Source of the DNA: Psychrobacter sp. DM4
GTDB lineage: Bacteria; Pseudomonadota; Gammaproteobacteria; Pseudomonadales; Moraxellaceae
Length of the DNA stretch: 32,000 nt
NCBI RefSeq assembly: GCF_051307035.1
Contig: NZ_CP195536.1
Location: 1,320,001-1,352,000, forward strand
Direction of reading: 5' to 3'
Shown piece by piece: positions 20,011-32,000 of the stretch. The first letter of the stretch is position 1, and every line of letters starts with the position of its first letter. The notes under the pieces are model-generated. The model was not told where the DNA came from and did no database searches. It saw only the letters and a program-made list of their open reading frames with translations. Both the position numbers and the translations under genes were made by a program.

Positions 20011-20026
20011 TTCAATATTTATGCCA
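20011..20026 (-). promoter_or_regulatory. Candidate sigma-54 promoter for urtA (TGGCAT-N5-TTGAA on the minus strand)
   Basis: The reverse complement reads TGGCATAAATATTGAAG. The -24 GG is canonical, but the -12 element is GA rather than GC. It lies about 75 nt upstream of the urtA ATG and closely resembles the nirB candidate at 27064-27079. Confidence 0.45.
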
Positions 20027-20432: not shown

Positions 20433-20449
20433 AGCACCGCTTAGGTGCA
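20433..20449. promoter_or_regulatory. NtrC-like upstream activator site (AGCACC-GCTTA-GGTGCA)
   Basis: It matches the TGCACC-N5-GGTGCA dyad at 11 of 12 positions. It lies about 210 bp upstream of the sigma-54 candidate at 20655. Another TGCACC occurs at 20462. Confidence 0.5.
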
Positions 20450-20654: not shown

Positions 20655-20670
20655 TGGCATACCTATTGCT
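20655..20670 (+). promoter_or_regulatory. Candidate sigma-54 promoter for the FNT gene (TGGCAT-ACCTA-TTGCT)
   Basis: GG-N10-GC spacing is canonical. It lies 43 nt upstream of the ATG at 20713. Confidence 0.65.
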
Positions 20671-20712
20671 TTAGCTATATTGTTATTTATCAATCAACAA
20701 TTGAGGTGTTTG

Positions 20713-21528
20713 ATGGCGTACATTGATCCAAGCGAATTCACGACGAAAATGGTAGATTCTGGTGAGTCTAAGATGAGTATGTCAACCAGCGATACCTTAA
20801 TCCGCGCCTTTATGGCAGGTGCAATATTAGCACTGGCGGCTTTTTTTGCGATTACAGTAACAGTGAATACAGGTAATCCGCTGTTAGGAGCACTATTGTT
20901 TCCAGTCGGATTTATCATGCTGTATCTAATGAAGTTTGATTTGCTGACAGGCGTATTTACACTTGTACCTTTAGCCTTATTAGATAAGCGTCCAGGCTGC
21001 GATATGAAGCAGTTATTGCGCAATTGGGGGCTTGTGTTTTTAGGCAATTTAGGCGGAGCCATAACCGTGGCTTTTCTAGCTTCTTTTATCTTAACCTTTG
21101 GTTATGAGACAGACGGTGGCACTATAGCGGCCAAAGTAGGCACTATTGGAGAGGCTCGTACACTAGGTTATCAGTCTCACGGAACTTCAGGCTGGTTTAC
21201 TATTTTTGTTCGCGGCATGTTATGTAATTGGATGGTTTCGATGGGCGTAGTAGGCGCTATGATTTCAACTTCAGCATCTGGTAAGATGTTTGCTATGTAC
21301 ATGCCAATCATGCTCTTCTTTTATATGGGTTTTGAGCACTCTATTGTTAATATGTTCCTATTCCCATTCTCAATGATTATGGGTGGTGATTTTACAATCG
21401 CAGATTATTTGATTTGGAATGAATTACCTACAGTACTAGGTAACCTAGTAGGGGGTCTGTTTTTTGTAGGTTTGCCGCTGTACTTTACTCATGTACGCAC
21501 TCGTCCAAGCCGCAAATTGGTTCAATGA
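20713..21528 (+). CDS. Formate/nitrite transporter (FNT) family channel, NirC/FocA-like; substrate unknown (nitrite or cyanate suggested by context)
   Basis: It shows six-TM FNT hallmarks (LCNWMVS, GFEHSIVNMF). I prefer the ATG at 20713, which has a GAGGTG ribosome-binding site at 20703-20708, over the track's TTG at 20680. Confidence 0.85.
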   Translation: MAYIDPSEFTTKMVDSGESKMSMSTSDTLIRAFMAGAILALAAFFAITVTVNTGNPLLGALLFPVGFIMLYLMKFDLLTGVFTLVPLALLDKRPGCDMKQLLRNWGLVFLGNLGGAITVAFLASFILTFGYETDGGTIAAKVGTIGEARTLGYQSHGTSGWFTIFVRGMLCNWMVSMGVVGAMISTSASGKMFAMYMPIMLFFYMGFEHSIVNMFLFPFSMIMGGDFTIADYLIWNELPTVLGNLVGGLFFVGLPLYFTHVRTRPSRKLVQ

Positions 21529-21551
21529 TGACATATGAGTTCTGCTATTAA

Positions 21552-21580
21552 TAGACCTCGCTTAGGCGAGGTTTATTATT
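21552..21580 (+). terminator. Hairpin plus T-rich tract between the FNT and PP2C-kinase genes (terminator or attenuator)
   Basis: ACCTCGC-TTAG-GCGAGGT forms a 7-bp GC-rich stem, extendable to about 10 bp, followed by TTATTATT. Confidence 0.55.
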
Positions 21581-21611
21581 GAGGGATCAAACTTAGCTTC
21601 TGGACATCACA

Positions 21612-23330
21612 ATGACACAGAAAAAACTTTCGGTGAGTATCAGTCAGCATTCACAAGCAGGAATAGGAAAACTGGTAAATCAGGACGCCCTTATCGCCTA
21701 TGTGCCTGATGATAGTCTGTTGCAATCTAAGGGCGCTGTATTTGCCGTTGCTGATGGTATCAGTACGAGTCAATTTGGTGCAAAAGCTAGTCAGATAGCA
21801 GTGAGTAGTTTTTTAAATGATTATTTAGATACACCAGAGACTTGGTCTACAAAGACATCAGGATTCAAAGTATTACTGTCAATAAATTCATGGTTGGTTG
21901 CACAAAGTCGACAAGGCGGGCACAGCTTTAATCAAAATAAAGGCTATGTGTGTGCATTTGCTACCCTTATTATCAAATCGCGCAGCATTCACATATTTCA
22001 CTCAGGTGATGTCCGTGTCGTTATGCTACATAAGGGTATTATCGATATTCTCACTCAAGATCATCGTCAAGTTTATGATAATGAACGTACTTATCTAAGT
22101 GCAGCACTAGGCTTAGATGATCATATCCGTCTGGATTATCTAAACGTTGAAGCCCAGTTGGACGCAACTTACCTTTTACTAAGCGATGGTGTTCATGAGC
22201 ATTTAAACAACGATGATATCATTCAGACATTAGAAAAATTACCAAGTGCTACCTGTGCTCAAAGACTTTGTGAATTGGCTACTATAAAGGGCTCTGTAGA
22301 TGATGCCAGTGCTTTAGTGATAAAAATTAATGATCTACTAGCAGAAGATAGAAGTGAGTTTTATAGGTATACCAAAGATCTTACTCCCATAATCTCGTTA
22401 GAAAAGGGAGCTGTAATTGATGGACTGAATGTTGTTAGACCACTCAGTAAAACGCCGCGCAGCCACACATACTTAGTCATAGATCAAAATGAAAATTTGT
22501 ACGTCTTAAAAACGCCTTCTGCTGAAAAAAGTCAAGATGACACTCATATTGAAAGTATGCTTATGGAGGAGTGGGTGGCAAGGCGTCTAAATAATACCCA
22601 TCTGATGACAGCGCCTAAGCTAAAAACACCACGTTCAAAACTATATACTCTAAGCCACTATGTTGAAGCTCAGAGCTTAGCTCAATGGATGGCAGAGCAT
22701 CCAAAACCGAGCCTTAATCAAGTACGATCTATCATTCAGCAAATTGCAACTGGATTACAAGTCATGCACCGCGCCGAGGTCATTCATCGTGATCTAAGAC
22801 CAGAAAATATCTTGATAGATGACAAAGGGACGGTCACAATTATTGATTTCGGTGAGGTTAGCATTGCAGGTTTAGATAAGGTTAATGCTGACAATATAAT
22901 ACCAGGTAGTTTACAGTATACAGCACCAGAGTATTTATTAGGTGCTGTAGGTACGGCAGGAAGTGATGTCTTTTCGCTGGGTATTTTAACTTATCAGATT
23001 CTAAGTGGTCAATTACCGTATGGCCTAAAGGTATCTAGTGCCTATAGCAAAAAGGCGCAAAATCAACTCAAAATTAGACCCTTGTTAGAGCTGGGCATAC
23101 GTATACCAGAGTGGTCTGTTTATGCTATAAATAAAGCATTAGATACTGATCCAAAACGTCGCTATAAAGAAGTTTCTGAATTTATTTATGAGCTCAATAG
23201 CCCAAGCTCAGATTTTAAACCTGAGCATAATACCGCATGGATCGATCGCGACCCAGTGCGATTCTGGCAAGGCGTAAGCACTGCCTTATTAGTAGTAGTG
23301 CTTAGCCTGATTTTAAGTGACTATTGGTAG
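21612..23330 (+). CDS. Bifunctional PP2C-type phosphatase / Ser-Thr protein kinase fusion with a C-terminal TM anchor (STK1)
   Basis: 572 aa.
- PPM motifs: NQD, VADGIS, SGDVRV, LLSDGV, DDAS (aa about 5-240).
- Kinase motifs: YVLK, HRDLRPEN (HRD at 22785-22793), DFG (22845-22853), TAPE, SDVFSLG.
- Terminal hydrophobic segment: ALLVVVLSLILS. Confidence 0.85.
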   Translation: MTQKKLSVSISQHSQAGIGKLVNQDALIAYVPDDSLLQSKGAVFAVADGISTSQFGAKASQIAVSSFLNDYLDTPETWSTKTSGFKVLLSINSWLVAQSRQGGHSFNQNKGYVCAFATLIIKSRSIHIFHSGDVRVVMLHKGIIDILTQDHRQVYDNERTYLSAALGLDDHIRLDYLNVEAQLDATYLLLSDGVHEHLNNDDIIQTLEKLPSATCAQRLCELATIKGSVDDASALVIKINDLLAEDRSEFYRYTKDLTPIISLEKGAVIDGLNVVRPLSKTPRSHTYLVIDQNENLYVLKTPSAEKSQDDTHIESMLMEEWVARRLNNTHLMTAPKLKTPRSKLYTLSHYVEAQSLAQWMAEHPKPSLNQVRSIIQQIATGLQVMHRAEVIHRDLRPENILIDDKGTVTIIDFGEVSIAGLDKVNADNIIPGSLQYTAPEYLLGAVGTAGSDVFSLGILTYQILSGQLPYGLKVSSAYSKKAQNQLKIRPLLELGIRIPEWSVYAINKALDTDPKRRYKEVSEFIYELNSPSSDFKPEHNTAWIDRDPVRFWQGVSTALLVVVLSLILSDYW

Positions 23331-23352
23331 CTCAATCATATAGCAGATCGAA

Positions 23353-23793
23353 TTACCACGTTTTGTAAGGTAAAAATTTACCATTAAGTACAATAACGAC
23401 TCTATCCCCATTGGGATTTTCTTCTTTATCTATATCAATAGAGAAGTCAATTGCACTCATGATACCATCCCCAAACTTTTCTTGAACCACCTCTTTGATG
23501 CTAGTGCCATAGATACCAACTGCCTCATACAGTCTATAGACAAGTGGATCTTGAGGAACATCACGTCCCCAACTTTTTGTTGGATATTCCATCAAAGTAG
23601 TCTTTGCTTGGTCTCCAAGCTCTAGCAACGAGCATAATTTACTAGCAGGTGCCTCAGGCATACTATTATTACCAAAACAAGCTGACGTCACCCAAACAAC
23701 GCCCATTTCTAGATGAGCGGCAATGTCTTCCCAGCTTAAAGACTTCTCTTTTTTAGCCAAAATGATTGCTTCTGTTAATTCTTCACGTGTCAT
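23353..23793 (-). CDS. cynS: Cyanase (cyanate hydratase/lyase) CynS
   Basis: 146 aa, canonical in length and sequence (…LVYRLYE…GDGIMSAIDF…DRVVIVLNGKFLPYKTW). Confidence 0.95.
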   Translation of the reverse strand: MTREELTEAIILAKKEKSLSWEDIAAHLEMGVVWVTSACFGNNSMPEAPASKLCSLLELGDQAKTTLMEYPTKSWGRDVPQDPLVYRLYEAVGIYGTSIKEVVQEKFGDGIMSAIDFSIDIDKEENPNGDRVVIVLNGKFLPYKTW

Positions 23794-23862
23794 ACTTAAT
23801 TACTCCAATAGTTTAAATTAAATGACGAAAAGTAGGCGTTTGCGATGTAACTGACAAGTTAA

Positions 23863-24219
23863 CTAGACTTTATGAGTACTAACCACCACCTTGCTGTTTT
23901 CAAGCCCTACTCGATAGATATCAAGTTTTACACTCTCATCATCCAAGCAGTGCCCAGTTGCCAAATTAAAGCGCTGTTTATAAATAGGTGAGGCGACGTA
24001 GAGCACCTCTTCAGTGCCGCCCGTATCATCTGCGATAGTGGTACCACCAATCAATCCACGAGAGAGTACATTGGCTTGACTAAAGGGATCGTAATTATCG
24101 AGGGCAAATAAGTCATCTTGCTTGGTGCGAAAGATAGCAATCTGCTTACCCTCTATGAGCGCGCAAACGCCCGTCTCAGGGAGAATGTCATTCAGTTGGC
24201 AAACGGTGTGCTGAATCAT
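23863..24219 (-). CDS. nirD: Assimilatory nitrite reductase small subunit NirD (Rieske-like fold)
   Basis: 118 aa, directly downstream of nirB, with the typical NirD pattern (VCALIEGKQIAIFR...SPIYKQRFNLATGHCLDD). Confidence 0.9.
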   Translation of the reverse strand: MIQHTVCQLNDILPETGVCALIEGKQIAIFRTKQDDLFALDNYDPFSQANVLSRGLIGGTTIADDTGGTEEVLYVASPIYKQRFNLATGHCLDDESVKLDIYRVGLENSKVVVSTHKV

Positions 24220-24317
24220 AGGGTTATCCTTTACGTGTAACGAGTAGCAAATAAAACTTCAAACACAGCTATCTATAAAAGGGGTTAGCGCTGTGTTTGA
24301 AAAAGGGAGTAGACTAT

Positions 24318-26900
24318 TTATGCCAACTCAGTCACTTGGATTTTGGCTTTTTCAGCGTCCGTCGCTGGGCGAATCTGATTGCGCTCGCTTACAAAGATGA
24401 CGTTATCATCGCCTTGCTCACTGTTCACAAAATGACGGAAGCGTTTGAGCTTTTCGCTATCAGTAATAGTGGCTTTCCACTCACAGACATAGTTATCGAC
24501 CAGTAGCTGCATTTGTGCCTCAAGCTCATCTGCGATACCTAAGCTGTCGTCAATAATGACCGCTTGTAGATACTCAAGTCCACCATCCAAGCTCTCGCGC
24601 CACTTTGAGGTGCGCTGTAGCTTATCGGCGGTTTTAATATAGAACATAATAATACGGTCGATATACTTGACCATCGTTTCAGTATCAAGGTCGGTTGCAA
24701 ACAGCTCGCCATGGCGCGGAGTAATGCCGCCGTTACCACCGACGAATAAGTTCCAGCCATTCTCGGTTGCGATCATGCCAAAGTCCTTACTCTGCGCCTC
24801 AGCACACTCGCGCATGCATCCTGATACGCCCATCTTGATCTTATGCGGTGAGCGTACGCCTTTGTAACGATCCTCTAATCTAATCGCCAGACCCATACTG
24901 TCATCCACCCCATATCGACACCAGTCATTACCCACACAAGACTTGACCGTGCGTAACGACTTACCGTAGGCATGACCCGTCTCAAAGCCTGCTTCTACCA
25001 GTTGTGTCCAGATATCAGGTAATTGCTCCATACGCGCACCGAACAGATCGACTCGCTGTCCGCCAGTGATCTTGGTGTATAGATTAAATTCTTTGGCGAC
25101 TTGTCCGAGTACGATGAGCTTATCGGCGGTAATCTCACCACCTGGTACACGGGGTACGACCGAATACGTGCCATCCTTTTGAATATTGCCTAGATAGTAA
25201 TCATTACTATCCTGTAGTGGGGTCAGCTCAGGTTTGAGTACATAATCATTCCAGCATGAGGACAAGATAGAGGCGACGGTCGGTTTGCAAATCTCACAGC
25301 CATGACCGCTACCGTGTTCAGTGAGTAGCTCATCAAAGGTTCTGATGCCGTGGACGCGAATCAAGCTATACAAGTCCTGACGCGAGTAGGCAAAATGCTC
25401 GCACAAGTCGTTATTGACTTCAAAGCCAAGGGTAGTCAGCTGATAGCTCAAGGTATCTTTGACCATGGGCGCACAACCACCGCAGCCCGTACCAGCACTA
25501 GTGACCGCTTTGACATCAGCAATGGAGTACGCACCGTTTTCGACCGCGGCGCAGATCGCGCCTTTGGTGACGTTATAACAAGAGCAAATCGTGGCGGTAT
25601 CTGGCAGATTATCAATGCCCATGACCGGCTTTTCGACATTAGGTAATATCAGACTTTCAGGATGCGCAGGCAAGTCAATATCATTGAGATACAGTTGTAA
25701 TAAGTTATTATAGTCTTCGGTATCACCGACCAATACCGCACCAAGCAGACGCTTATTATCAGGCGTGGTCACCAGCTTCTTGTAGATACCCTCTGCTGGA
25801 TTCTGGTACAGATAACTCAGTCCGCCCTCAGTAGTACCATGGGCATCACCGATACTGCCAACGTCTACGCCCATCAGTTTGAGCTTGGTACTCATATCAG
25901 CACCAGCAAATATTTGCTCACTATCACCCGCAATTTGTGCGGCGCAAATGCTCGCCATACTATAACCGGGCGCAACCAAACCAAATACCTTGTTGTCCCA
26001 TACCGCACATTCGCCAATGGCATAGACGTGCTCCGCGTTAGTGCGGCACTGCTCATCGATCAAAATCCCGCCACGGCTACCCATTTCGATACCGCATTCA
26101 GGATTGTCTTTGACAATGCCATCTTGCGGACGGATACCCGCACTAAAGAGAATTAAATCGGTATCAAGAGAGGTGCCATCAGCAAATTGCATGGTCAAAA
26201 AACAATCGTCATCGTCTGTGACGGTATGAGAGATAATTTCTTTGGTGTTTTTACCTGTCAAGACGGTAACGCCCAGTGCTTCGATTTTGCGTTTTAAGAT
26301 CTCGCCGCCTGCGGCATCAAGCTGAACGCCCATCAGTTGCGGCGCAAATTCGACCACATAAGTCTCAAGACCTAGAGTCACGAGCGCTTTTGCAGCCTCA
26401 AGTCCAAGCAAACCACCACCGACGACCACGCCCTTTTTGACTTTAGGTAATTCAGCTGTCGCTAAAATATCATCCAAATCAGCAATCGTACGATACACGT
26501 GACAATGCGGATGCTCGCGACCCGGAATCGGTGGCACAAAGGGGTAGGAGCCTGTCGCTAAAACCAGCTCGCTGTACTCAATCTGCTCGCCGTCCTCTGT
26601 GGTAATGGATTGAGTCGTCGAGTCGATATCTACAATGCGTTGATTAAGATGCAAGTTTACCTTTGATGATTCGTAAACGTTGAGATCGACAAGGTTGAGT
26701 TTGCTGGCATCCTTGTGCTCAAAATAGCTAGATAGATAAACGCGATCATAAGCAGGGCGATCCTCTTCAGCGAATACATGAATCTCAAATTGTTCATGTA
26801 GTCCTTGTTCAATGGCGCGCTCAACGAAATGATGACCGACCATACCGTTGCCGATGACGACTAGGTTACCTTTGCTACTTATATTCATTGTACTACTCAT
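24318..26900 (-). CDS. nirB: NAD(P)H-dependent assimilatory nitrite reductase large subunit NirB
   Basis: 860 aa. It has FAD- and NAD-binding GxGxxG motifs (VIGNGMVG, VVGGGLLGLEAA), BFD-like [2Fe-2S] cysteines (CSCYNV...GTGCGGC), and a sirohaem/[4Fe-4S] domain (SGCMRECAEA). Confidence 0.95.
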   Translation of the reverse strand: MSSTMNISSKGNLVVIGNGMVGHHFVERAIEQGLHEQFEIHVFAEEDRPAYDRVYLSSYFEHKDASKLNLVDLNVYESSKVNLHLNQRIVDIDSTTQSITTEDGEQIEYSELVLATGSYPFVPPIPGREHPHCHVYRTIADLDDILATAELPKVKKGVVVGGGLLGLEAAKALVTLGLETYVVEFAPQLMGVQLDAAGGEILKRKIEALGVTVLTGKNTKEIISHTVTDDDDCFLTMQFADGTSLDTDLILFSAGIRPQDGIVKDNPECGIEMGSRGGILIDEQCRTNAEHVYAIGECAVWDNKVFGLVAPGYSMASICAAQIAGDSEQIFAGADMSTKLKLMGVDVGSIGDAHGTTEGGLSYLYQNPAEGIYKKLVTTPDNKRLLGAVLVGDTEDYNNLLQLYLNDIDLPAHPESLILPNVEKPVMGIDNLPDTATICSCYNVTKGAICAAVENGAYSIADVKAVTSAGTGCGGCAPMVKDTLSYQLTTLGFEVNNDLCEHFAYSRQDLYSLIRVHGIRTFDELLTEHGSGHGCEICKPTVASILSSCWNDYVLKPELTPLQDSNDYYLGNIQKDGTYSVVPRVPGGEITADKLIVLGQVAKEFNLYTKITGGQRVDLFGARMEQLPDIWTQLVEAGFETGHAYGKSLRTVKSCVGNDWCRYGVDDSMGLAIRLEDRYKGVRSPHKIKMGVSGCMRECAEAQSKDFGMIATENGWNLFVGGNGGITPRHGELFATDLDTETMVKYIDRIIMFYIKTADKLQRTSKWRESLDGGLEYLQAVIIDDSLGIADELEAQMQLLVDNYVCEWKATITDSEKLKRFRHFVNSEQGDDNVIFVSERNQIRPATDAEKAKIQVTELA

Positions 26901-27063: not shown

Positions 27064-27079
27064 TTCAATAATCGTGCCA
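27064..27079 (-). promoter_or_regulatory. Candidate sigma-54 promoter for nirBD-cynS (TGGCACG-ATTA-TTGAA on the minus strand)
   Basis: The reverse complement reads TGGCACGATTATTGAAG. The -24 region is a perfect TGGCACG, but the -12 element is GA rather than GC. It would give a leader of about 165 nt. Confidence 0.5.
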
Positions 27080-27444: not shown

Positions 27445-27460
27445 TGGCATAGCCATTGCA
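27445..27460 (+). promoter_or_regulatory. Candidate sigma-54 promoter for the nitrate transporter operon (TGGCAT-AGCCA-TTGCA)
   Basis: The -24/-12 spacing and core are canonical. It lies 94 nt upstream of the ATG at 27554. Confidence 0.7.
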
Positions 27461-27553
27461 CCGCTTCAATTATCTAAATCGATGAGTTCTTTAAACGTAA
27501 CTTGTTACCTTTATCAAAAAAATCCCAAAGTTAGTCCTTTAAGGAAGCTGTCT

Positions 27554-29062
27554 ATGTCGTCGCCAAACCCTGTTACTCCTACTAAAGATAAGTTAAATGT
27601 CCTATCGTTCGCGGGTAAAAATAAAATCCTTCACTTAGGTTGGATGGCATTTTTTCTTACCTTTTTTGTATGGTTTAACCATGCGCCGTTCTTATCAGCG
27701 ATTGGTGAGACGCTTAATCTGACCAAAGATCAGGTCAAAACCTTACTCATTCTCAACGTCGCCTTGACTATTCCTGCACGCGTCATCATCGGAATGCTTA
27801 CCGACCGTTTCGGTCCACGCATCGTTTATACAGCGATTTTATCGATTGGTGCGATTCCCTGTTTTACCTTTGCGTTCGCCCAAGATTACAACACCTTAGC
27901 TCTGTCTCGTTTCTTACTCGGCTTTGTGGGCGCAGGCTTCGTGGTAGGTATTCGCTTAATGAGCGATTGGTTCCCGCCCAATGAGTTGGGTACGGCTGAA
28001 GGAATCTATGGCGGCTGGGGTAACTTCGGTTCAGCTGCTGCGGCACTATTACTACCTACTGTCGCTATCATTGCAGCGGCTATATTCGGTGGTGATGAGG
28101 GCTGGCGTTATGCGACGGCGACGTCGGGTGTCGTAATGGCGCTTTATAGTATTATTTTTTATAGAATGGCACGCAATACTCCTAAAGGCGCGACTTACTT
28201 TAAGCCTAAAAAGTCGGGCGCGATGATGGTGACCTCATCGGGCGACTTTTGGCTGATGATGGTCTTTAAACTACCGATGTACTTAGCTTTAGCATTATTG
28301 GCGTGGAAATTGTCACCTTCAGGTGTCAGTTTGCTTAGCCAATCGAGTGTTACGATGGTCTACATTGGCCTAGCGGTCTTGTATGTCTATGAGTTCATTA
28401 GTAGCTACCGCTTCAATAAAGAGGTGTTTACCACGCCTGTCCCTGAAGCGCATCGTTATGACTTTAAGCAAGTCGGTATCTTAAATATTCTATACTTTGC
28501 GACTTTTGGCTCAGAGCTTGCGGTTGTCTCTATGCTGCCTTTGTTTTATCAAGAGACCTTTAGTTTATCGATTGTCATGGCAGGTGTATTGGCATCAAGT
28601 TATGCCTTTATGAATCTGATGTCACGACCTGGTGGCGGTTGGCTCAGTGATAAATTCGGTCGCAAGATTACCCTGTTGATTTTAACGGCGGGTCTAGCCG
28701 TCGGTTATCTATTGATGGGCTTTCTTGATTCAACATGGCCACTGGCGCTAGCATTATTAATCACTATGTTTTGCTCGTTTTTTGTACAAGCAGGCGAAGG
28801 TGCCGTCTTTGCTGTCATTCCCCTGATTAAGCGCAGTATGACAGGGCAGTTTGCAGGTATGACCGGTGCATATGGTAACGTCGGCTCAGTCGTCTATCTC
28901 ACGGTGCTCAGCCTTGTCTCTTATCAAGTATTTTTCTTTGTCATTGCCGCAACCGCAGTCATTGGATTCTTCGCCTTATTTTTACTTAAAGAGCCAGAAG
29001 GTACTATCTTAGAAGAGATGCCAGATGGCAGCTTTGCTGAGATTCAAGTGAGTCATAAATAG
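27554..29062 (+). CDS. MFS nitrate/nitrite porter (NNP family; NarK/NasA/NrtP-like)
   Basis: It has 12-TM MFS architecture with two NNP-type Gly/Asn motifs (GGWGNFGSAAA, GAYGNVGSVVY). I prefer the ATG at 27554, which has an AAGGAAG ribosome-binding site at 27541-27547, over the track's start at 27482. Confidence 0.85.
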   Translation: MSSPNPVTPTKDKLNVLSFAGKNKILHLGWMAFFLTFFVWFNHAPFLSAIGETLNLTKDQVKTLLILNVALTIPARVIIGMLTDRFGPRIVYTAILSIGAIPCFTFAFAQDYNTLALSRFLLGFVGAGFVVGIRLMSDWFPPNELGTAEGIYGGWGNFGSAAAALLLPTVAIIAAAIFGGDEGWRYATATSGVVMALYSIIFYRMARNTPKGATYFKPKKSGAMMVTSSGDFWLMMVFKLPMYLALALLAWKLSPSGVSLLSQSSVTMVYIGLAVLYVYEFISSYRFNKEVFTTPVPEAHRYDFKQVGILNILYFATFGSELAVVSMLPLFYQETFSLSIVMAGVLASSYAFMNLMSRPGGGWLSDKFGRKITLLILTAGLAVGYLLMGFLDSTWPLALALLITMFCSFFVQAGEGAVFAVIPLIKRSMTGQFAGMTGAYGNVGSVVYLTVLSLVSYQVFFFVIAATAVIGFFALFLLKEPEGTILEEMPDGSFAEIQVSHK

Positions 29063-29093
29063 CACTAAAAAACCAAAAAAGAACCAAATAAGG

Positions 29094-31292
29094 ATGACTT
29101 TGAATACTACTCAAAGAACCAGTCAAAATGCCGACGAACAAGGCGCTCGTAATAATCAGCCAGATGGTTGCGCTGTGAGTGCTCAAGTAAGCACTGAATC
29201 TGGTGGTCAGTCATCCTTACTTTCATCACCAAAATTTTCATCACCAAAATCAAGTCATTTTGAGGCAGATCATGCCTTGTGGTGGCTTGACTTTTTTACC
29301 ATGAAAGGCCGTAAATCTGAAAACCAAGATAGTCTTTTGATAACCACTTGTTTGCCGTATCATTTTTTAGATAAAACATCAGATAGCACGAACGATTCAA
29401 ACCTTTTTGATGAGATAACAACCCCTCCTGCGCCTTTGCTAGTACTCATGGCAGATGGGGTGAGCGCTTGTCAGTTTCCAAAGCAGGCCAGTCAACTGGT
29501 GATCAACACCGTCGCTGACAAGCTCACGTTAGCCTTGTCAAAATTAGCTAAAATACAGTGCGAGGCGCAAAAGTACTCTGACGACAACAAACAGACCCAA
29601 AGCAACAACAAGGATCACCGTTATCAAGCCTCAACAATGAGTTTTGATGACGATCAAATCGCTAGTCTCATCAAGATCGCGGTCAATAAGGCTAATGATA
29701 CCCTGTGCATCCCGCAAGCCTATCAGCGCGTACCGCCTTTGTTATCCACATTGTCAGGCTTATTATGTATTGGCGATCGTATTCATCTGTTTCATACGGG
29801 TGATTCACGTATTTATCGTATCGGGATAGACAGTCTGACCGTACTGAGTGAAGATCATCGTATCCATCGCGGTCAGGACAAAGGAGCGCTCTCAGCAGCG
29901 ATTGGGGCGGATACGCAACTGGATCTGCAACAGTCGATATTTACACTACATCAAGACGAATCCTTAGCCATCATGACTGATGGCGTGTATGAGCATATCG
30001 ACGCCACAGAGTTACAGTTCGAGCTGTGCTCGGCAGCGACCAATATGTTTGAATCGGTCGCTGCCGAGCACAAGTTACCTACTGGGTTCAACGCCAGTCA
30101 GACAATCTGCGAGCACGCCTTTGCTGAGGGTAGTCATGATAATTTGAGCATGATAATGCTTAGTATGGATGCAACACCATGCCAATCTGGTCAAGCAAGC
30201 GCTTTGAATAGCTCAGATCAAAGTAGTAGCGATAGCGATATGCCCCGTTATAAGCTACCGACAGGCTTAGAAGTCGGCGATAGTATCGACGGATTCACAG
30301 TAATGACTATCATTGCGCGCACCGCTCGCAGTGATGTGTATTTGGTACAAGATGAGCATAAAAACGACTATGTCTTGAAATCCCCGAGTCTCGATACTAT
30401 CGATGATGGTCACTATTTGCGTGATTTTTTGAAGGAGCGCAAGATTGGCCTTAGCCTCTCAAAACATCGACGCGCAGGCGAGTCCGCTTTTAATCAAGCT
30501 GATCCTAATCGGTTGCACATGACTACTCTAAATGGTAGTAGCATCCAAAGCCAAAGTATAAGTTCTGGATTTAGTGCGTCAGGACTGCTGCGTTACTATC
30601 CTGTACCTGCCAGCACCACCTATCTGTATCACTTAACGGAATACATTGAGGGCGAGAGCCTACGGGACTTTATTGAACGCAATGCGCCGTGTGATGTCTG
30701 GCAGACTTATGATCTACTGACCAAGATCGGCATGGCGGTGCGGGTGATGCATCGCAACTATCTGTTGCACCAAGACATCAAGCCTGAAAACGTGCTTTTA
30801 ACTCAAGCAGGCGCGGTCAAGCTAATCGACTTTGGTTCGGCAAGCTCCTCCATTCTAAAAGACAGTACGCGCCCGCCTAATGGCGACTTGCATTACGCTG
30901 CACCAGAGTATTACACCGATGCACCAAAAGGCGTGCATTCGGATCTTTTTTCAATAGCGGTAATCGGCTATGAGCTACTGACAGGACAGCTGCCGTTTGG
31001 CACGCAAGATCTCATGAATCCGCAGCACGCTCTAGTGATGCCTGCCCAGCCGCTACGCCAAAACAACATACCCGCTATCAGTCAGCAGGCACTTATGCGG
31101 GCGCTACATTCTAATACTAATGCACGCTATCAAGCCATCGGTGAGTTCTTACAGGATTTTAACCCTGATAATAGGGCAAACAGTCGTGACCCTGAACCGC
31201 TTATTCAGCGCAACCCTTTACTGGTATGGCATAGCATTTGCTTTATACAGTTTGTCATCATCATTTTATTGCTGTGGGTTTATCTGGCATAA
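29094..31292 (+). CDS. Bifunctional PP2C-type phosphatase / Ser-Thr protein kinase fusion with a C-terminal TM anchor (STK2)
   Basis: 732 aa. It starts 31 nt after the transporter stop and has an AAGGA ribosome-binding site.
- PPM motifs: NQDS, MADGVS, TGDSRIY, IMTDGV, SHDNLS.
- Kinase motifs: YVLK, HQDIKPEN (30768-30776), DFG (30828-30836), AAPE, SDLFSIAVIG.
- Terminal TM segment: FIQFVIIILLLWVYLA. Confidence 0.85.
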   Translation: MTLNTTQRTSQNADEQGARNNQPDGCAVSAQVSTESGGQSSLLSSPKFSSPKSSHFEADHALWWLDFFTMKGRKSENQDSLLITTCLPYHFLDKTSDSTNDSNLFDEITTPPAPLLVLMADGVSACQFPKQASQLVINTVADKLTLALSKLAKIQCEAQKYSDDNKQTQSNNKDHRYQASTMSFDDDQIASLIKIAVNKANDTLCIPQAYQRVPPLLSTLSGLLCIGDRIHLFHTGDSRIYRIGIDSLTVLSEDHRIHRGQDKGALSAAIGADTQLDLQQSIFTLHQDESLAIMTDGVYEHIDATELQFELCSAATNMFESVAAEHKLPTGFNASQTICEHAFAEGSHDNLSMIMLSMDATPCQSGQASALNSSDQSSSDSDMPRYKLPTGLEVGDSIDGFTVMTIIARTARSDVYLVQDEHKNDYVLKSPSLDTIDDGHYLRDFLKERKIGLSLSKHRRAGESAFNQADPNRLHMTTLNGSSIQSQSISSGFSASGLLRYYPVPASTTYLYHLTEYIEGESLRDFIERNAPCDVWQTYDLLTKIGMAVRVMHRNYLLHQDIKPENVLLTQAGAVKLIDFGSASSSILKDSTRPPNGDLHYAAPEYYTDAPKGVHSDLFSIAVIGYELLTGQLPFGTQDLMNPQHALVMPAQPLRQNNIPAISQQALMRALHSNTNARYQAIGEFLQDFNPDNRANSRDPEPLIQRNPLLVWHSICFIQFVIIILLLWVYLA

Positions 31293-31373: not shown

Positions 31374-32000
31374 ATGTCGCTTTATAAGTCATCACCTACC
31401 ACTCAATCCGATAGTCATAATATAGACGTTACTGAAAATGCGGGCATCATCATCATCGGTGCTGGTATGGCAGGCAGCCGTTTTGCTATTGAGCTGGCAA
31501 GGGCGCAGCAGCTAAATGATGCTGACGTCCATCCGCCAATTACCTTGATTAGCAAAGAGAGCCACGTGGGCTACAACCGCATTATGTTATCGCCTGTGCT
31601 GGCAGGAGATACCGCGTTTGATGATACTTACCTGTATGACCAATCAGACTATGAGCAGTTGGGCATTAGGGTGCTGGCTGGGGTCAGCGTGGATACGATG
31701 GATACCAATCAGCAGTGTATTGAGCTTGATAACGGGCAGACGCTACACTATACCAAAGTAGTGATCGCTACAGGATCAACCGCTCGCGTGATACCGTTTC
31801 CCAATCATAAGGCTAAAGGGGTACATGTCTTTCGAGATTCTATGGATGTCAGCACACTGACTGAATACGCCCGTCAAGGCAAAACGGGACTCGTGATTGG
31901 CGGCGGGGTATTGGGACTGGAGGCGGCGTGTGCTCTAGCAGGACAAGGGGCGAGCATGACGGTCATTCATGTGGATGCTTACGTACTCAACACCCAGCTG
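31374..32000 (+). CDS. FAD/NAD(P)H-dependent pyridine-nucleotide-disulfide oxidoreductase, NirB-N-terminal-like; probably the electron-transfer subunit of assimilatory nitrate reductase. The 3' end lies outside the window
   Basis: This gene is not in the ORF track because no stop is reached. The ATG at 31374 has an AAGGA ribosome-binding site at 31361-31365, and 209 codons are open to the window edge. It has IIGAGMAG (FAD) and VIGGGVLGLEAA (NAD) motifs parallel to those of nirB. Confidence 0.8.
   Translation, partial: MSLYKSSPTTQSDSHNIDVTENAGIIIIGAGMAGSRFAIELARAQQLNDADVHPPITLISKESHVGYNRIMLSPVLAGDTAFDDTYLYDQSDYEQLGIRVLAGVSVDTMDTNQQCIELDNGQTLHYTKVVIATGSTARVIPFPNHKAKGVHVFRDSMDVSTLTEYARQGKTGLVIGGGVLGLEAACALAGQGASMTVIHVDAYVLNTQL

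What the first reader, a model, noticed from the sequence alone, without database searches (positions are those of the whole stretch)
27445..31292. Nitrate transporter gene tightly coupled to a tail-anchored PP2C-phosphatase/Ser-Thr-kinase fusion (STK2)
**Seen in the sequence**
- A sigma-54-type promoter candidate precedes a NarK-family nitrate porter gene.
- A 732-aa ORF follows after only 31 nt, with its own AAGGA ribosome-binding site.
- That ORF combines a complete PPM/PP2C motif set, a Hanks-type kinase core and one C-terminal TM helix, so both catalytic domains should face the cytoplasm at the membrane.
- The next gene is the nitrate-reductase flavoprotein gene, so the kinase gene sits inside a nas operon.

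**Inference**
- Opposing kinase and phosphatase activities in one polypeptide, next to the transporter, suggest a phospho-switch acting on the transporter or on the nas enzymes.
- As far as I know, such a mechanism is not experimentally described for bacterial nitrate assimilation.
- From memory, Pseudomonas nas clusters also encode an uncharacterised Ser/Thr kinase (PA1782).

**Other features of the protein**
- The N-terminus carries a 15-bp tandem duplication encoding SSPKF/SSPKS (29223-29250).
- Relative to STK1, the kinase N-lobe has a low-complexity insert of about 45 aa (aa about 455-500).
Basis: partly seen in the sequence, partly recalled or inferred. Interest (0 to 1): 0.7.

Follow-up and report, generated by a model that had tools for sequence, protein, structure and literature searches.

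The report
Transporter-coupled membrane kinase–phosphatase fusion
A Psychrobacter nitrate-transporter gene is followed by a membrane-anchored protein that fuses a protein phosphatase to a protein kinase; relatives of this protein sit next to a nitrate, nitrite or cyanate-linked transporter gene in every readable locus I examined, which points to an untested phosphorylation control of nitrogen-anion uptake.

Summary
The window comes from Psychrobacter. It contains a sigma-54-type promoter motif (27445-27460), narK (likely start 27554, stop 29062), a 31-nt gap, and a 732-aa ORF (29094-31292). That ORF has a PP2C domain, a Hanks-type kinase domain and a C-terminal TM helix. The next gene encodes the nitrate-reductase flavoprotein.

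A much shorter paralogue, STK1 (28% identical), follows a formate/nitrite-family (FNT) transporter gene 6 kb upstream.

The pairing holds wherever the locus could be read:
- 15 of 15 genome loci
- 43 of 43 metagenome loci
- 9 of 9 annotated plasmid or chromid loci
- 0 of 63 control loci with generic Hanks kinases

Several pairs stand alone or travel on plasmids without any reductase gene, so the transporter, not the nas enzymes, is the constant partner. Catalytic residues of both domains are family-invariant. The glycine-rich loop is replaced by a conserved Arg-Ser motif.

- The AAGG "RBS" abuts the ATG.
- The downstream reductase genes have their own conserved sigma-54 motif inside the kinase gene's 3' end.
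- The SSPK repeat and the N-lobe insert are lineage-specific.

The family is annotated (PA1782; ppkB in Pseudomonas sp. UW4). I found no experimental study.

The parts
27445..27460 (+). sigma-54-type -24/-12 promoter motif TGGCATAGCCATTGCA upstream of narK
   Evidence: The match to TGGCAY-N5-TTGCW is exact. The same motif lies about 100-148 nt upstream of narK in the Psychrobacter-type loci, and 36-44 nt upstream in the distant loci L115-L127.
27554..29062 (+). narK: NarK/NNP-family nitrate/nitrite MFS transporter of the NRT2-like long form. The likely start is ATG 27554; the ORF is open from 27482.
   Evidence: Pfam MFS_1 scores 142.6 bits. NCBIfam TIGR00886 scores 334 bits against a cutoff of 311.7. 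AAGGAAG precedes ATG 27554. Homologues align from this Met.
29063..29093 (+). 31-nt narK-STK2 spacer. It is A-rich, and its AAGG abuts the ATG.
   Evidence: Sequence read. In related loci the gap to the first start codon of the STK reading frame is mostly 2-31 nt in the Psychrobacter-type group and 74-185 nt in the distant group L115-L126, or the two reading frames overlap.
29094..31292 (+). STK2: 732-aa tail-anchored PP2C phosphatase / Hanks-type Ser/Thr kinase fusion
   Evidence: ORF, Pfam. It is 100% identical over 91% of its length to a Psychrobacter sp. DM4 protein, and homologues are named 'bifunctional protein-serine/threonine kinase/phosphatase'.
29094..29273 (+). Variable, low-complexity N-terminal extension (aa 1-60), including the 15-bp SSPKF/SSPKS duplication at 29223-29252
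   Evidence: pLDDT is below 30. The sequence is not conserved. The reading frame nevertheless stays open up to the narK stop in most Psychrobacter-type loci.
29274..30167 (+). PP2C (PPM) domain, aa about 61-358, with two disordered inserts (aa 89-111 and 161-181)
   Evidence: PP2C_2 scores 34.3 bits against a cutoff of 24. D79, D121-G122, D296-G297 and D349-N350 are conserved across the family. Foldseek matches HAB1, ABI2 and OsPP2C50. Strand beta-1 (aa 61-70) lies upstream of the start NCBI annotated (M70).
30264..31178 (+). Hanks-type kinase domain, aa about 391-695. It is a non-RD kinase (HQD), and its glycine-rich loop is replaced by ARTARS.
   Evidence: Pkinase scores 106.6 bits. K429, E448, H559/D561, N566, D579-F-G581, A603-P-E605, D617 and R678 are invariant. 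The best solved relatives are StkP, PknA and PknB.
30462..30587 (+). Psychrobacter-specific disordered insert in the kinase N-lobe (aa about 457-498)
   Evidence: It aligns to a gap in STK1. It is absent from P0125-P0128 of the same clade. pLDDT is 25-39.
31191..31286 (+). Conserved juxtamembrane motif (PLIQRNPLLVW) followed by the C-terminal TM helix (aa 708-731); a single residue follows the helix
   Evidence: Mean hydropathy is 2.61 over aa 707-732. The helix has pLDDT above 90. P702, P708 and W712 are invariant or nearly so across the family.
31227..31242 (+). Second sigma-54-type motif TGGCATAGCATTTGCT inside the STK2 coding sequence (codons W-H-S-I-C), 132 nt before the downstream ATG
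   Evidence: The match is exact. It is present in 33 of 33 related loci that hold this region. The Ile codon is ATT and the Cys codon TGC in all 27 distinct sequences, while neighbouring Ile codons vary between T and C.
31374..32000 (+). 5' part of the nasC/nasB-type NAD(P)H flavoprotein gene of assimilatory nitrate reductase; it runs off the window
   Evidence: Pyr_redox_2 scores 100 bits. In L081 the full 516-aa gene is followed by a 1189-aa molybdopterin/BFD nitrate reductase gene and a cobA-type methylase gene.
23863..26900 (-). nirB (24318-26900) and nirD (23863-24219), transcribed divergently from narK
   Evidence: Pfam Pyr_redox_2, NIR_SIR and Fer2_BFD for nirB; Rieske_2 for nirD. A sigma-54-like site with 1 mismatch lies at 27064-27079 on the minus strand.
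20655..20670 (+). sigma-54-type motif TGGCATACCTATTGCT upstream of the FNT gene
   Evidence: The match is exact. An NtrC-like palindrome, AGCACCGCTTAGGTGCA, lies at 20433-20449 with 1 mismatch.
20713..21528 (+). FNT (formate/nitrite family) channel gene; the likely start is ATG 20713, preceded by GAGGTG
   Evidence: Form_Nir_trans scores 220 bits. Sequence read. It is 65-78% identical to the FNT genes upstream of STK homologues in L001-L003 and L015.
21549..21578 (+). Strong hairpin in the 83-nt FNT-STK1 spacer; it looks like a terminator or attenuator
   Evidence: Fold energy is -28.2 kcal/mol, z = -3.64, and 0 of 200 shuffles fold as well.
21612..23330 (+). STK1: 572-aa paralogue with the same architecture (PP2C, kinase, RDPVRFWQ motif, TM)
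   Evidence: Pkinase scores 121 bits and PP2C_2 51.9 bits. It is 28% identical to STK2, E = 5e-53. A TM segment lies at aa 549-572. A 96% identical copy sits in an FNT-STK-cynS cassette on Psychrobacter plasmid pA17P2.
23353..23793 (-). cynS (cyanase), convergent with STK1
   Evidence: Cyanate_lyase and CYNS_N. cynS accompanies FNT-STK pairs in L015, on pA17P2, on an Acinetobacter junii plasmid and on a Sulfitobacter plasmid.

Best explanation
STK2 belongs to a widespread proteobacterial family of tail-anchored proteins in which a PP2C phosphatase and a Ser/Thr kinase both face the cytoplasm. Each family member is dedicated to the small-anion transporter encoded just upstream of it.

Proposed mechanism.
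- narK and STK2 are transcribed together from a sigma-54 promoter, so they are made under nitrogen limitation.
- The C-terminal helix holds both catalytic domains at the inner face of the membrane, beside the transporter.
- The kinase phosphorylates a cytoplasmic segment of the transporter, or a tightly bound factor, and the PP2C domain removes the phosphate.
- The result is a fast, reversible switch on nitrate/nitrite uptake. It would act on top of transcriptional control, for example to stop import when ammonium returns or when nitrite reduction cannot keep pace.
- STK1 would do the same for the FNT channel.

Shown here: the domain architecture, conservation of the catalytic residues of both domains, the membrane anchor, the conserved transporter-STK gene pair, kinase clades that follow transporter type, and the conserved sigma-54 motifs.

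Inferred, not shown: enzyme activities, the substrate, the direction of the effect and the input signal.
For: Architecture.
- Pkinase and PP2C_2 both score above their Pfam cutoffs.
- There is a single C-terminal hydrophobic helix.
- The predicted fold matches PP2C (HAB1/ABI2) and PknB/Stk1.

Both active sites look functional.
- The PP2C metal-binding Asp residues are invariant or nearly so in alignments of 23-51 distant homologues.
- So are the kinase K, E, HxD, N, DFG and APE residues.

Synteny.
- Genomes: 14 of 17 family loci have NarK (10) or FNT (4) immediately upstream on the same strand. One more (L016) has a divergently oriented NarK-family gene. The other two are cut by a contig end (L010) or hold only a truncated copy (L014).
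- Metagenomes: 43 of 43 STK2-clade loci that include upstream DNA have narK directly upstream.
- Plasmids and chromids: 9 of 9 annotated loci show FNT-STK or NarK-STK.
- Controls: none of 63 generic Hanks-kinase loci retrieved by the same pattern has NarK, FNT, NirB, NirD or CynS within about 8 kb.

The transporter, not the reductases, is the constant partner.
- Pairs stand alone in L002, L004, L005 and L007 and in Azospirillum, Cupriavidus, Methylobacterium and Thioclava.
- The pair travels on a 17-kb mobilizable Psychrobacter plasmid and between IS elements in Acinetobacter.

Specificity.
- In a neighbour-joining tree the kinases group by partner class: FNT, Pseudomonas NasA-type and NRT2-like NarK.
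- This one genome keeps two paralogues that are only 28% identical, each beside its own transporter type.

Co-expression.
- Gaps between the two genes are short, or the genes overlap.
- The sigma-54 motif upstream of narK is conserved.
Against: - No phosphorylation site, interaction or activity was observed.
- The partner transporters belong to three unrelated or distant classes, and I found no shared cytoplasmic motif. A common docking or target site is therefore not evident.
- An NRT2-like NarK on a Shewanella plasmid keeps the conserved C-terminal tail but has no kinase gene.
- The kinase lacks a glycine-rich loop, so ordinary ATP binding cannot be assumed.
- The PP2C motif-1 Glu is Gln (NQD).
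- Conserved synteny fits equally well with a model in which the transporter is the sensor rather than the target.
- The control loci come mostly from other phyla.
Confidence: 0.5

Rival explanations
1. Transceptor model. The transporter is the sensor and the STK is the transducer. Substrate binding or flux through NarK or FNT is relayed to the membrane-anchored STK. The STK then phosphorylates soluble targets such as a regulator of nas/nir/cyn expression, a PII-type protein or metabolic enzymes. The transporter itself is not the substrate.
For: - The STK has no periplasmic or other recognisable sensor domain, so an input from the neighbouring transporter is attractive.
- The same conserved synteny and partner-specific clades apply here.
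- The partner transporters share no obvious target motif.
- No nasS/nasT-type genes and no leader structure were seen near narK in this window, which leaves room for another nitrate- or nitrite-specific signal path.
Against: - In Pseudomonas an ORF that reads like a response-regulator receiver domain, preceded by a periplasmic-binding-protein-like ORF, lies just upstream of nasA-STK in L011. I take these to be nasS and nasT, but no profile search confirmed that. If they are, the STK is not simply a replacement for NasST.
- No candidate soluble target is consistently encoded nearby.
- Stand-alone and plasmid-borne pairs would have to find their targets in any host.
Confidence: 0.25
2. The STK regulates the assimilatory enzymes (NirBD, the nitrate reductase NasC/NasA, or cyanase) rather than transport.
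For: NirBD genes lie within 8 kb in 8 of 17 genome loci and in all Psychrobacter-type loci long enough to show them. cynS accompanies several FNT-STK pairs.
Against: - Many pairs have no reductase or cyanase gene nearby.
- The gene immediately adjacent to the STK gene is the transporter gene, except in L015, where cynS lies between them.
- A membrane anchor has no obvious use for regulating soluble reductases.
Confidence: 0.1
3. One or both domains are catalytically inactive. The protein would then act as a scaffold or chaperone for transporter assembly, or the linkage is inherited gene order without a dedicated functional tie.
For: - The glycine-rich loop is missing (ARTARS in STK2; xxRSxxYL across the family).
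- The kinase has HQD in place of HRD.
- The PP2C motif 1 reads NQD in place of NED.
- The PP2C_2 score is modest at 34 bits.
Against: - All metal-binding and phosphotransfer residues are invariant across homologues that are only 25-40% identical. Pseudoenzymes usually lose these residues.
- The linkage persists across Alpha-, Beta- and Gammaproteobacteria, with two unrelated transporter folds, and on mobile DNA.
Confidence: 0.07

Closest known systems
PA1782 of Pseudomonas aeruginosa and ppkB (PputUW4_03641) of Pseudomonas sp. UW4: the 'probable Ser/Thr kinase' gene downstream of nasA
   Same: Same protein family and same gene order. The Pseudomonas loci L011-L013 and L017 show a NasA-type NarK followed by the STK, with NirB next in L012 and L013 and within range in L017. 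The UW4 cluster is published as nasST-nasA-ppkB-nasDEC-cobA, with the suggestion that the kinase might phosphorylate the transporter (PMC3596284).
   Different: - STK2 is about 28-31% identical to this clade and pairs with a different NarK subfamily (the NRT2-like long form).
- It carries Psychrobacter-specific inserts and an N-terminal extension.
- No nasS or nasT gene is visible in the window.
- PA1782 itself is only listed as a third, unstudied kinase (PMC8560001).
Separately encoded bacterial Hanks kinase and PP2C pairs (PknB/PstP, PrkC/PrpC, Stk1/Stp1, StkP/PhpP)
   Same: Homologous catalytic domains. The best solved relatives of the kinase are StkP, PknA and PknB. The PP2C domain hits the Stp1/IreP profile. 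In both cases a kinase is opposed by a PP2C.
   Different: - Those systems are two proteins. The kinase has an N-terminal catalytic domain, a mid-protein TM helix and extracellular PASTA sensor domains.
- Here the two enzymes are fused in the order PP2C then kinase. The protein is tail-anchored, has no extracytoplasmic domain and no glycine-rich loop, and is tied to a transporter gene.
- Scores are far below the equivalog cutoffs (117 against 450 bits; 46 against 230 bits).
Plant NRT1.1/NPF6.3 control by the kinase CIPK23 and the PP2C ABI2, NRT2.1 C-tail phosphorylation, and yeast Ynt1 control by Npr1 (from my own knowledge; the 2013 UW4 paper cites a related plant CIPK study and the Npr1 study)
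   Same: What it may work like: a nitrate transporter switched by a Ser/Thr kinase and reset by a PP2C. The STK2 PP2C model superposes best on clade-A plant PP2Cs (HAB1, ABI2).
   Different: - This is analogy, not orthology.
- The transporter families partly differ.
- The plant kinase and phosphatase are separate soluble proteins recruited through calcium sensors.
- No bacterial case has been demonstrated.
WNK kinases (from my own knowledge): chloride-sensing kinases that control cation-chloride cotransporters
   Same: Both are kinases with an atypical glycine-rich-loop region that are linked functionally to anion transport. WNK kinases are a precedent for an anion binding in a kinase active site.
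   Different: - There is no sequence relationship beyond the kinase fold.
- The catalytic Lys of STK2 is in the normal beta-3 position (K429).
- Anion binding by STK2 is pure speculation.
PII-dependent control of cyanobacterial nitrate uptake with the PP2C PphA (from my own knowledge)
   Same: A PP2C-family phosphatase takes part in rapid, ammonium-responsive control of nitrate uptake.
   Different: - The target there is PII (Ser49), and the transporter is an ABC system.
- The phosphatase is a separate soluble protein, and the kinase is unknown.
- Nothing here links the STK to PII.

Membership tests
Hanks-type (eukaryote-like) Ser/Thr protein kinase, Pfam PF00069 | Profile score above the curated cutoff | tested here: met
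   106.6 bits against a cutoff of 31.7. Only profile positions 55-212 align, because of the N-lobe insert.
Hanks-type (eukaryote-like) Ser/Thr protein kinase, Pfam PF00069 | Catalytic residues: beta-3 Lys, alpha-C Glu, HxD Asp, Asn, DFG, APE | tested here: met
   K429, E448, D561, N566, D579-F-G581 and A603-P-E605. All are invariant in the family alignments.
Hanks-type (eukaryote-like) Ser/Thr protein kinase, Pfam PF00069 | Glycine-rich loop GxGxxG | tested here: not met
   STK2 has ARTARS (aa 408-413). The family consensus is xxRSxxYL, with an invariant Arg and a nearly invariant Ser.
Hanks-type (eukaryote-like) Ser/Thr protein kinase, Pfam PF00069 | RD arginine (HRD), which implies control through the activation loop | tested here: not met
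   STK2 and most family members have HQD. STK1 has HRD.
Hanks-type (eukaryote-like) Ser/Thr protein kinase, Pfam PF00069 | Phosphotransfer activity | not testable with these tools
   Requires a biochemical assay.
PPM/PP2C phosphatase (Pfam PF13672, PP2C_2) | Profile score above the curated cutoff | tested here: met
   34.3 bits against a cutoff of 24 for STK2, and 51.9 bits for STK1.
PPM/PP2C phosphatase (Pfam PF13672, PP2C_2) | Metal-binding Asp residues of motifs 1, 2, 8 and 11 | tested here: met
   D79, D121-G122, D296-G297 and D349-N350 are conserved across the family. The residue before D79 is Gln rather than Glu.
PPM/PP2C phosphatase (Pfam PF13672, PP2C_2) | PP2C fold | tested here: met
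   The AlphaFold2 domain core has pLDDT about 75-85. Foldseek hits HAB1, ABI2 and OsPP2C50 at E about 1e-10 with target-normalised TM-scores of 0.52-0.66. Overall model confidence is moderate.
PPM/PP2C phosphatase (Pfam PF13672, PP2C_2) | Phosphatase activity | not testable with these tools
   Requires a biochemical assay.
Transporter-linked 'bifunctional protein-serine/threonine kinase/phosphatase' (PA1782/ppkB type) | Architecture: PP2C, then kinase, then PLxERNPxxFW motif, then C-terminal TM helix | tested here: met
   Seen in STK2, in STK1 and in all 59 retrieved representative sequences, which are 543-651 aa long.
Transporter-linked 'bifunctional protein-serine/threonine kinase/phosphatase' (PA1782/ppkB type) | Gene lies next to a NarK or FNT transporter gene | tested here: met
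   True in the window for both paralogues, in 15/15 genome loci, 43/43 metagenome loci and 9/9 plasmid loci that could be read, and in 0/63 control loci.
NarK/NNP nitrate-nitrite MFS porter | NCBIfam TIGR00886 score above its cutoff | tested here: met
   334.1 bits against 311.7.
NarK/NNP nitrate-nitrite MFS porter | Substrate is nitrate and/or nitrite | not testable with these tools
   Inferred from family membership and from the nirBD, nasC and nasA genes nearby.
sigma-54 (RpoN) promoter | -24 GG and -12 GC elements at the consensus spacing | tested here: met
   Exact matches at 27445, 20655 and 31227.
sigma-54 (RpoN) promoter | Conservation at the same position in related loci | tested here: met
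   Found in all related loci that hold the region, including the 37%-identity group.
sigma-54 (RpoN) promoter | Upstream NtrC-type activator sites | tested here: inconclusive
   Good palindromes occur only in the urtA-FNT intergenic region (20433 and 20089). None with 3 or fewer mismatches lies upstream of narK, and the overall count is not above chance.
sigma-54 (RpoN) promoter | RpoN-dependent transcription start | not testable with these tools
   Requires 5' end mapping and an rpoN mutant.
Tail-anchored membrane protein | A single TM segment within the last 30 or so residues, and no signal peptide | tested here: met
   The only hydrophobic window is aa 707-732 of 732. The predicted helix spans 708-731.

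The most novel reading that the evidence does not exclude
The STK itself senses the anion. The conserved Arg-Ser motif that replaces the glycine-rich loop, or alternatively the PP2C domain, would bind cytoplasmic nitrate, nitrite or cyanate. That binding would set the balance between kinase and phosphatase activity. Each transporter would then be throttled by the intracellular level of its own substrate. This would be a bacterial counterpart of chloride sensing by WNK kinases, and it would protect the cell from nitrite build-up. It would also explain why one kinase family pairs with structurally unrelated transporters that share only the kind of substrate they carry.
Probability: 0.1. Interest if true: 0.85.

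Novelty: new variant of a known kind. Interest (0 to 1): 0.58.

Why it matters
Known control of bacterial nitrate assimilation is transcriptional: NtrBC with sigma-54, and NasST or NasR antitermination. To my knowledge, the rapid inhibition of nitrate uptake by ammonium has no molecular explanation in heterotrophic proteobacteria.

A kinase-phosphatase that is obligately encoded with the transporter is a concrete candidate for that missing layer, and it can be tested genetically. It occurs in tractable organisms (Pseudomonas, Acinetobacter) and in marine nitrogen cyclers (Psychrobacter, Marinobacter, Colwellia, Porticoccus, Hydrogenovibrio, methanotrophs).

It would also be a clear bacterial example of Hanks-type signalling dedicated to a single transporter, and it would parallel nitrate-transporter control in plants.

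The FNT-STK(-cynS) cassette on plasmids suggests that the regulated uptake unit is transferable between hosts.

Tried and rejected
1. A 51-sequence alignment was too diverse for the locus search. The narrower alignment produced a generic kinase pattern, so only 17 of 80 genome loci were family members. I used the other 63 as controls. They come mostly from other phyla, which weakens the control.

2. NasT/NasR-type leader or riboswitch upstream of narK: the 5' UTR fold is not better than shuffles (z = -0.87), and Rfam finds nothing there.

3. NtrC sites upstream of narK: not found at 3 or fewer mismatches.

4. A shared phospho-acceptor or docking motif in the partner transporters.
- FNT N-termini are highly conserved.
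- NRT2-like NarKs share a central-loop motif and a C-terminal EPxGxxxEVxxDG[ST] tail.
- The Pseudomonas NasA class has neither.
- One tail-bearing NarK has no kinase gene.
- I therefore make no claim about such a motif.

5. Is the NCBI start at M70 (663 aa) correct? I rejected it. The conserved first beta-strand of the PP2C fold (aa 61-70, 'LWWLDFFT') lies upstream of M70. The reading frame also stays open up to the narK stop in most related loci.

6. Is the PP2C domain a pseudophosphatase? Unlikely, given the invariant Asp residues.

7. Literature: nine full-text searches found no experiment on this family. Romeo et al. 2012 could not be opened, and subscription journals are not covered.

8. 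A fused-chain AlphaFold run for a NarK-STK2 complex was not attempted.

Full report
**What is in the window**

The window is Psychrobacter DNA. The 732-aa product is 100% identical, over 91% of its length, to a Psychrobacter sp. DM4 protein.

The second half of the window is a nitrogen-assimilation island. In order along the window it holds:
- urease and its accessory genes, and the urea ABC transporter (about 7.3-19.9 kb, minus strand)
- an FNT channel gene, 20713-21528 (+)
- STK1, 21612-23330 (+)
- cynS, nirD and nirB, 23353-26900 (-)
- narK, 27554-29062 (+)
- STK2, 29094-31292 (+)
- the start of a NirB-like flavoprotein gene at 31374 (+)

In the close relative L081 that flavoprotein gene (516 aa) is followed by a 1189-aa molybdopterin/BFD nitrate reductase gene and a cobA-type methylase gene.

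**Checking the observation**

- The narK product passes the NCBIfam NarK cutoff (334 against 311.7 bits).
- The spacer is 31 nt.
- STK2 scores 106.6 bits on Pkinase and 34.3 bits on PP2C_2, both above their cutoffs.
- Its only hydrophobic stretch is aa 707-732.
- An AlphaFold2 model built from 26 sequences has mean pLDDT 61, with domain cores at 70-85. It shows a PP2C domain (aa about 61-358), a disordered linker (360-384), a kinase domain (about 391-695) and a confident terminal helix (708-731).
- Foldseek finds plant PP2Cs (HAB1, ABI2, OsPP2C50) and bacterial PknB/Stk1 kinases with similar E-values.

Four details need correction.
1. The AAGG directly abuts the ATG (29090-29093 against 29094), so it is a poor Shine-Dalgarno sequence. 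Close relatives start six codons further upstream.
2. The narK ATG at 27482 is only 22 nt from the -12 element. ATG 27554, which follows AAGGAAG, is where homologues begin.
3. The kinase is atypical. The glycine-rich loop is replaced by ARTARS (family-wide xxRSxxYL), and HRD reads HQD.
4. The SSPKF/SSPKS duplication and the 40-aa N-lobe insert are real but confined to Psychrobacter. Both lie in segments predicted to be disordered.

The N-terminal 60 residues are variable. They are probably translated all the same.
- The frame stays open to within 2-31 nt of the narK stop in most related loci.
- The conserved first PP2C beta-strand lies upstream of the Met that NCBI chose for strain DM4.

**Promoters**

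The consensus TGGCAY-N5-TTGCW occurs exactly three times, always on the plus strand.
- before the FNT gene (20655)
- before narK (27445)
- inside the last 66 nt of STK2 (31227), 132 nt before the flavoprotein ATG

One-mismatch sites precede urtA and nirB on the minus strand. In total there are 9 matches, against 3.2 +/- 1.7 in shuffles.

The narK motif is kept in all related loci, even those whose STK is only 37% identical to STK2.

The internal motif is kept in 33 of 33 Psychrobacter-type loci. It is spelled by the codons W-H-(G/S)-I-C. The Ile codon is always ATT and the Cys codon always TGC, while neighbouring conserved Ile codons vary freely between T and C. That suggests selection on the DNA sequence itself.

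So narK-STK2 is best read as one sigma-54 unit, and the reductase genes have a promoter of their own embedded in the kinase gene. I found no structured leader, no Rfam element and no clear NtrC site upstream of narK.

**The family and its neighbours**

A profile search of 1.84 billion representative proteins returned well over a hundred representatives of 540-650 aa among its best 150 hits. All 59 that I retrieved have the same layout, ending in PLxERNPxxFWQ plus a hydrophobic tail.

In alignments of 23-51 of these, which are 25-42% identical to STK1, two sets of residues are invariant or nearly so:
- the PP2C Asp residues
- the kinase K, E, HxD, N, DFG and APE residues

Genome scan. It returned 17 family loci from Gamma- and Betaproteobacteria and from Magnetococcus.
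- 10 have a NarK gene immediately upstream on the same strand.
- 4 have an FNT gene immediately upstream on the same strand; in L015 cynS lies between the two.
- 1 has a divergently oriented NarK-family gene.
- 2 could not be read: one is cut by a contig end and one holds only a truncated copy.

Controls. The 63 other loci from the same scan carry generic Hanks kinases. None has NarK, FNT, NirB, NirD or CynS within about 8 kb.

Metagenome scan. Using the STK2 clade as the query, it gave 47 family loci. All 43 that include upstream DNA have narK directly upstream.

Annotated plasmids and chromids. They add nine further cases:
- FNT-STK in Azospirillum, Methylobacterium, Cupriavidus, Ideonella, Acinetobacter, Sulfitobacter and Psychrobacter
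- NarK-STK in Thioclava and Catenovulum
- a tenth case from the separate NarK search: nirBD-narK-STK on the large Vibrio sp. THAF190c replicon, which PLSDB lists as a plasmid

**Which gene is the partner**

Many pairs have no reductase or cyanase gene nearby.

The pair also moves on its own.
- A 17-kb mobilizable Psychrobacter plasmid carries FNT-STK-cynS, with the STK 96% identical to STK1. That is the same trio as window 20713-23793.
- Acinetobacter plasmids carry cynS with FNT-STK between IS elements.

A neighbour-joining tree, without bootstrap support, groups the kinases by partner class.
- All FNT-linked kinases form one clade, although their hosts range from Moraxellaceae to Hydrogenovibrio.
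- The Pseudomonas NasA-linked kinases form another clade.
- The NRT2-like NarK-linked kinases form two or three groups.

This one genome keeps a member of two of these clades, only 28% identical to each other, each beside its own transporter. The minimal unit is therefore transporter plus STK. This argues against the nas enzymes as the primary target.

**How it most likely works**

The membrane anchor, the cytoplasmic orientation, the lack of any sensor domain, the intact catalytic sites of two opposing enzymes and the obligate pairing with a transporter fit best with one model: a reversible phospho-switch acting on the co-encoded transporter or on a tightly associated factor (confidence about 0.5).

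The main rival is that the transporter is the sensor and the STK signals onward (about 0.25).

I could not tell these two apart. The partner transporters share no common cytoplasmic motif. The conserved C-terminal tail of the NRT2-like NarKs also occurs in one NarK that has no kinase gene.

The conserved Arg-Ser in place of the glycine-rich loop is unexplained. It allows a more speculative reading in which the kinase itself senses the anion.

**Comparison with what is known**

The family is annotated. PGAP names it 'bifunctional protein-serine/threonine kinase/phosphatase'. P. aeruginosa PA1782 is listed as an unstudied third Ser/Thr kinase (PMC8560001). The nasA-ppkB arrangement in Pseudomonas sp. 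UW4 was described in 2013, with the suggestion, by analogy with plants and yeast, that the kinase phosphorylates the transporter (PMC3596284).

Nine full-text searches found no experimental work. Subscription journals were not searchable.

The family differs from the classical bacterial PknB/PstP-type pairs in five ways:
- the two enzymes are fused
- the domain order is PP2C then kinase
- the protein is tail-anchored
- it has no extracellular domain
- its glycine-rich loop is atypical

Functionally, the nearest analogue is plant NRT1.1 control by CIPK23 and the PP2C ABI2 (from my own knowledge).

**Verdict**

The mechanism remains inference.

The gene family and its position beside nasA were already noted in the literature. 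As far as I could find, the following are new:
- the near-universal pairing
- its extension to FNT channels and cyanase
- its mobility on plasmids
- the partner-specific clades
- the sigma-54 motif embedded in the kinase gene

I rate interest at about 0.58. This is an uncharacterised variant of Ser/Thr signalling with a clear experimental path, not a surprise in kind.

Noticed in passing
window 20655-23793: There is a second, paralogous module: a sigma-54 motif, an FNT channel gene, STK1 (PP2C-kinase-TM, 28% identical to STK2) and a convergent cynS. The same FNT-STK-cynS trio, with the STK 96% identical to STK1, sits on the 17-kb mobilizable Psychrobacter plasmid pA17P2. That suggests a transferable cassette, possibly for cyanate or nitrite uptake.
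   Followed up: yes
window 31227-31242: An exact sigma-54 -24/-12 motif is embedded in the coding sequence of the STK2 TM helix (codons W-H-S-I-C). It is conserved in 33/33 related loci, and the synonymous positions it needs are fixed (Ile always ATT, Cys always TGC). It is probably the promoter of the nasC-nasA-cobA genes.
   Followed up: yes
window 21549-21578: A 13-bp-stem hairpin lies in the FNT-STK1 spacer (-28 kcal/mol for the 96-nt segment, z = -3.6) and is followed by U-rich sequence. It could act as an attenuator that keeps STK1 expression below that of the channel. The narK-STK2 spacer has nothing comparable.
   Followed up: partly
window 30315-30332 (STK2 aa 408-413) and STK1 aa 279-284: The kinase glycine-rich loop is replaced family-wide by a conserved xxRSxxYL motif with an invariant Arg and a nearly invariant Ser. 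Most members are non-RD kinases (HQD). The reason is unexplained.
   Followed up: partly
window 28997-29059 (NarK aa 482-502) and 28238-28309 (aa 229-252): STK-linked NRT2-like NarKs from distant taxa share a cytoplasmic central-loop motif (TPKG[SA]TYFKPK..EVTS) and a C-terminal tail (EPxGxxxEVxxDG[ST]). One Shewanella plasmid NarK keeps the tail but has no kinase gene, so the link to the STK is unproven.
   Followed up: partly
window 11581-11864 (+): There is an Rfam hit to the Helicobacter 5' ureB sRNA (98 bits), antisense to the urease gene. It most likely reflects conservation of the urease coding sequence rather than a real antisense RNA.
   Followed up: no
window 10256-12385 (-): The urease beta and alpha subunits are fused into one 709-aa ORF (Urease_beta, Urease_alpha and Amidohydro_1 domains). 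This is an unusual subunit arrangement for a bacterial urease.
   Followed up: no
window 20011-20026 (-), 27064-27079 (-), 20433-20449 (+): One-mismatch sigma-54 motifs precede urtA and nirB, and a near-perfect NtrC-type palindrome (AGCACCGCTTAGGTGCA) lies in the urtA-FNT intergenic region. The whole island looks NtrC/RpoN-controlled.
   Followed up: partly
window 29094-29300: The public annotation of the identical Psychrobacter sp. DM4 protein (663 aa) starts at M70. That start cuts off the conserved first beta-strand of the PP2C fold, so it is probably too far downstream.
   Followed up: yes
L140 (Shewanella aestuarii plasmid pPN3F2_1) 3992-7505: An NRT2-like narK sits next to an ISNCY transposase gene. 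About 1.7 kb of unannotated DNA follows it, with no detectable STK homologue. Among the narK hits on plasmids that are 60% or more identical to the window narK, this is the only one without the kinase gene, and it may be a decayed locus.
   Followed up: partly
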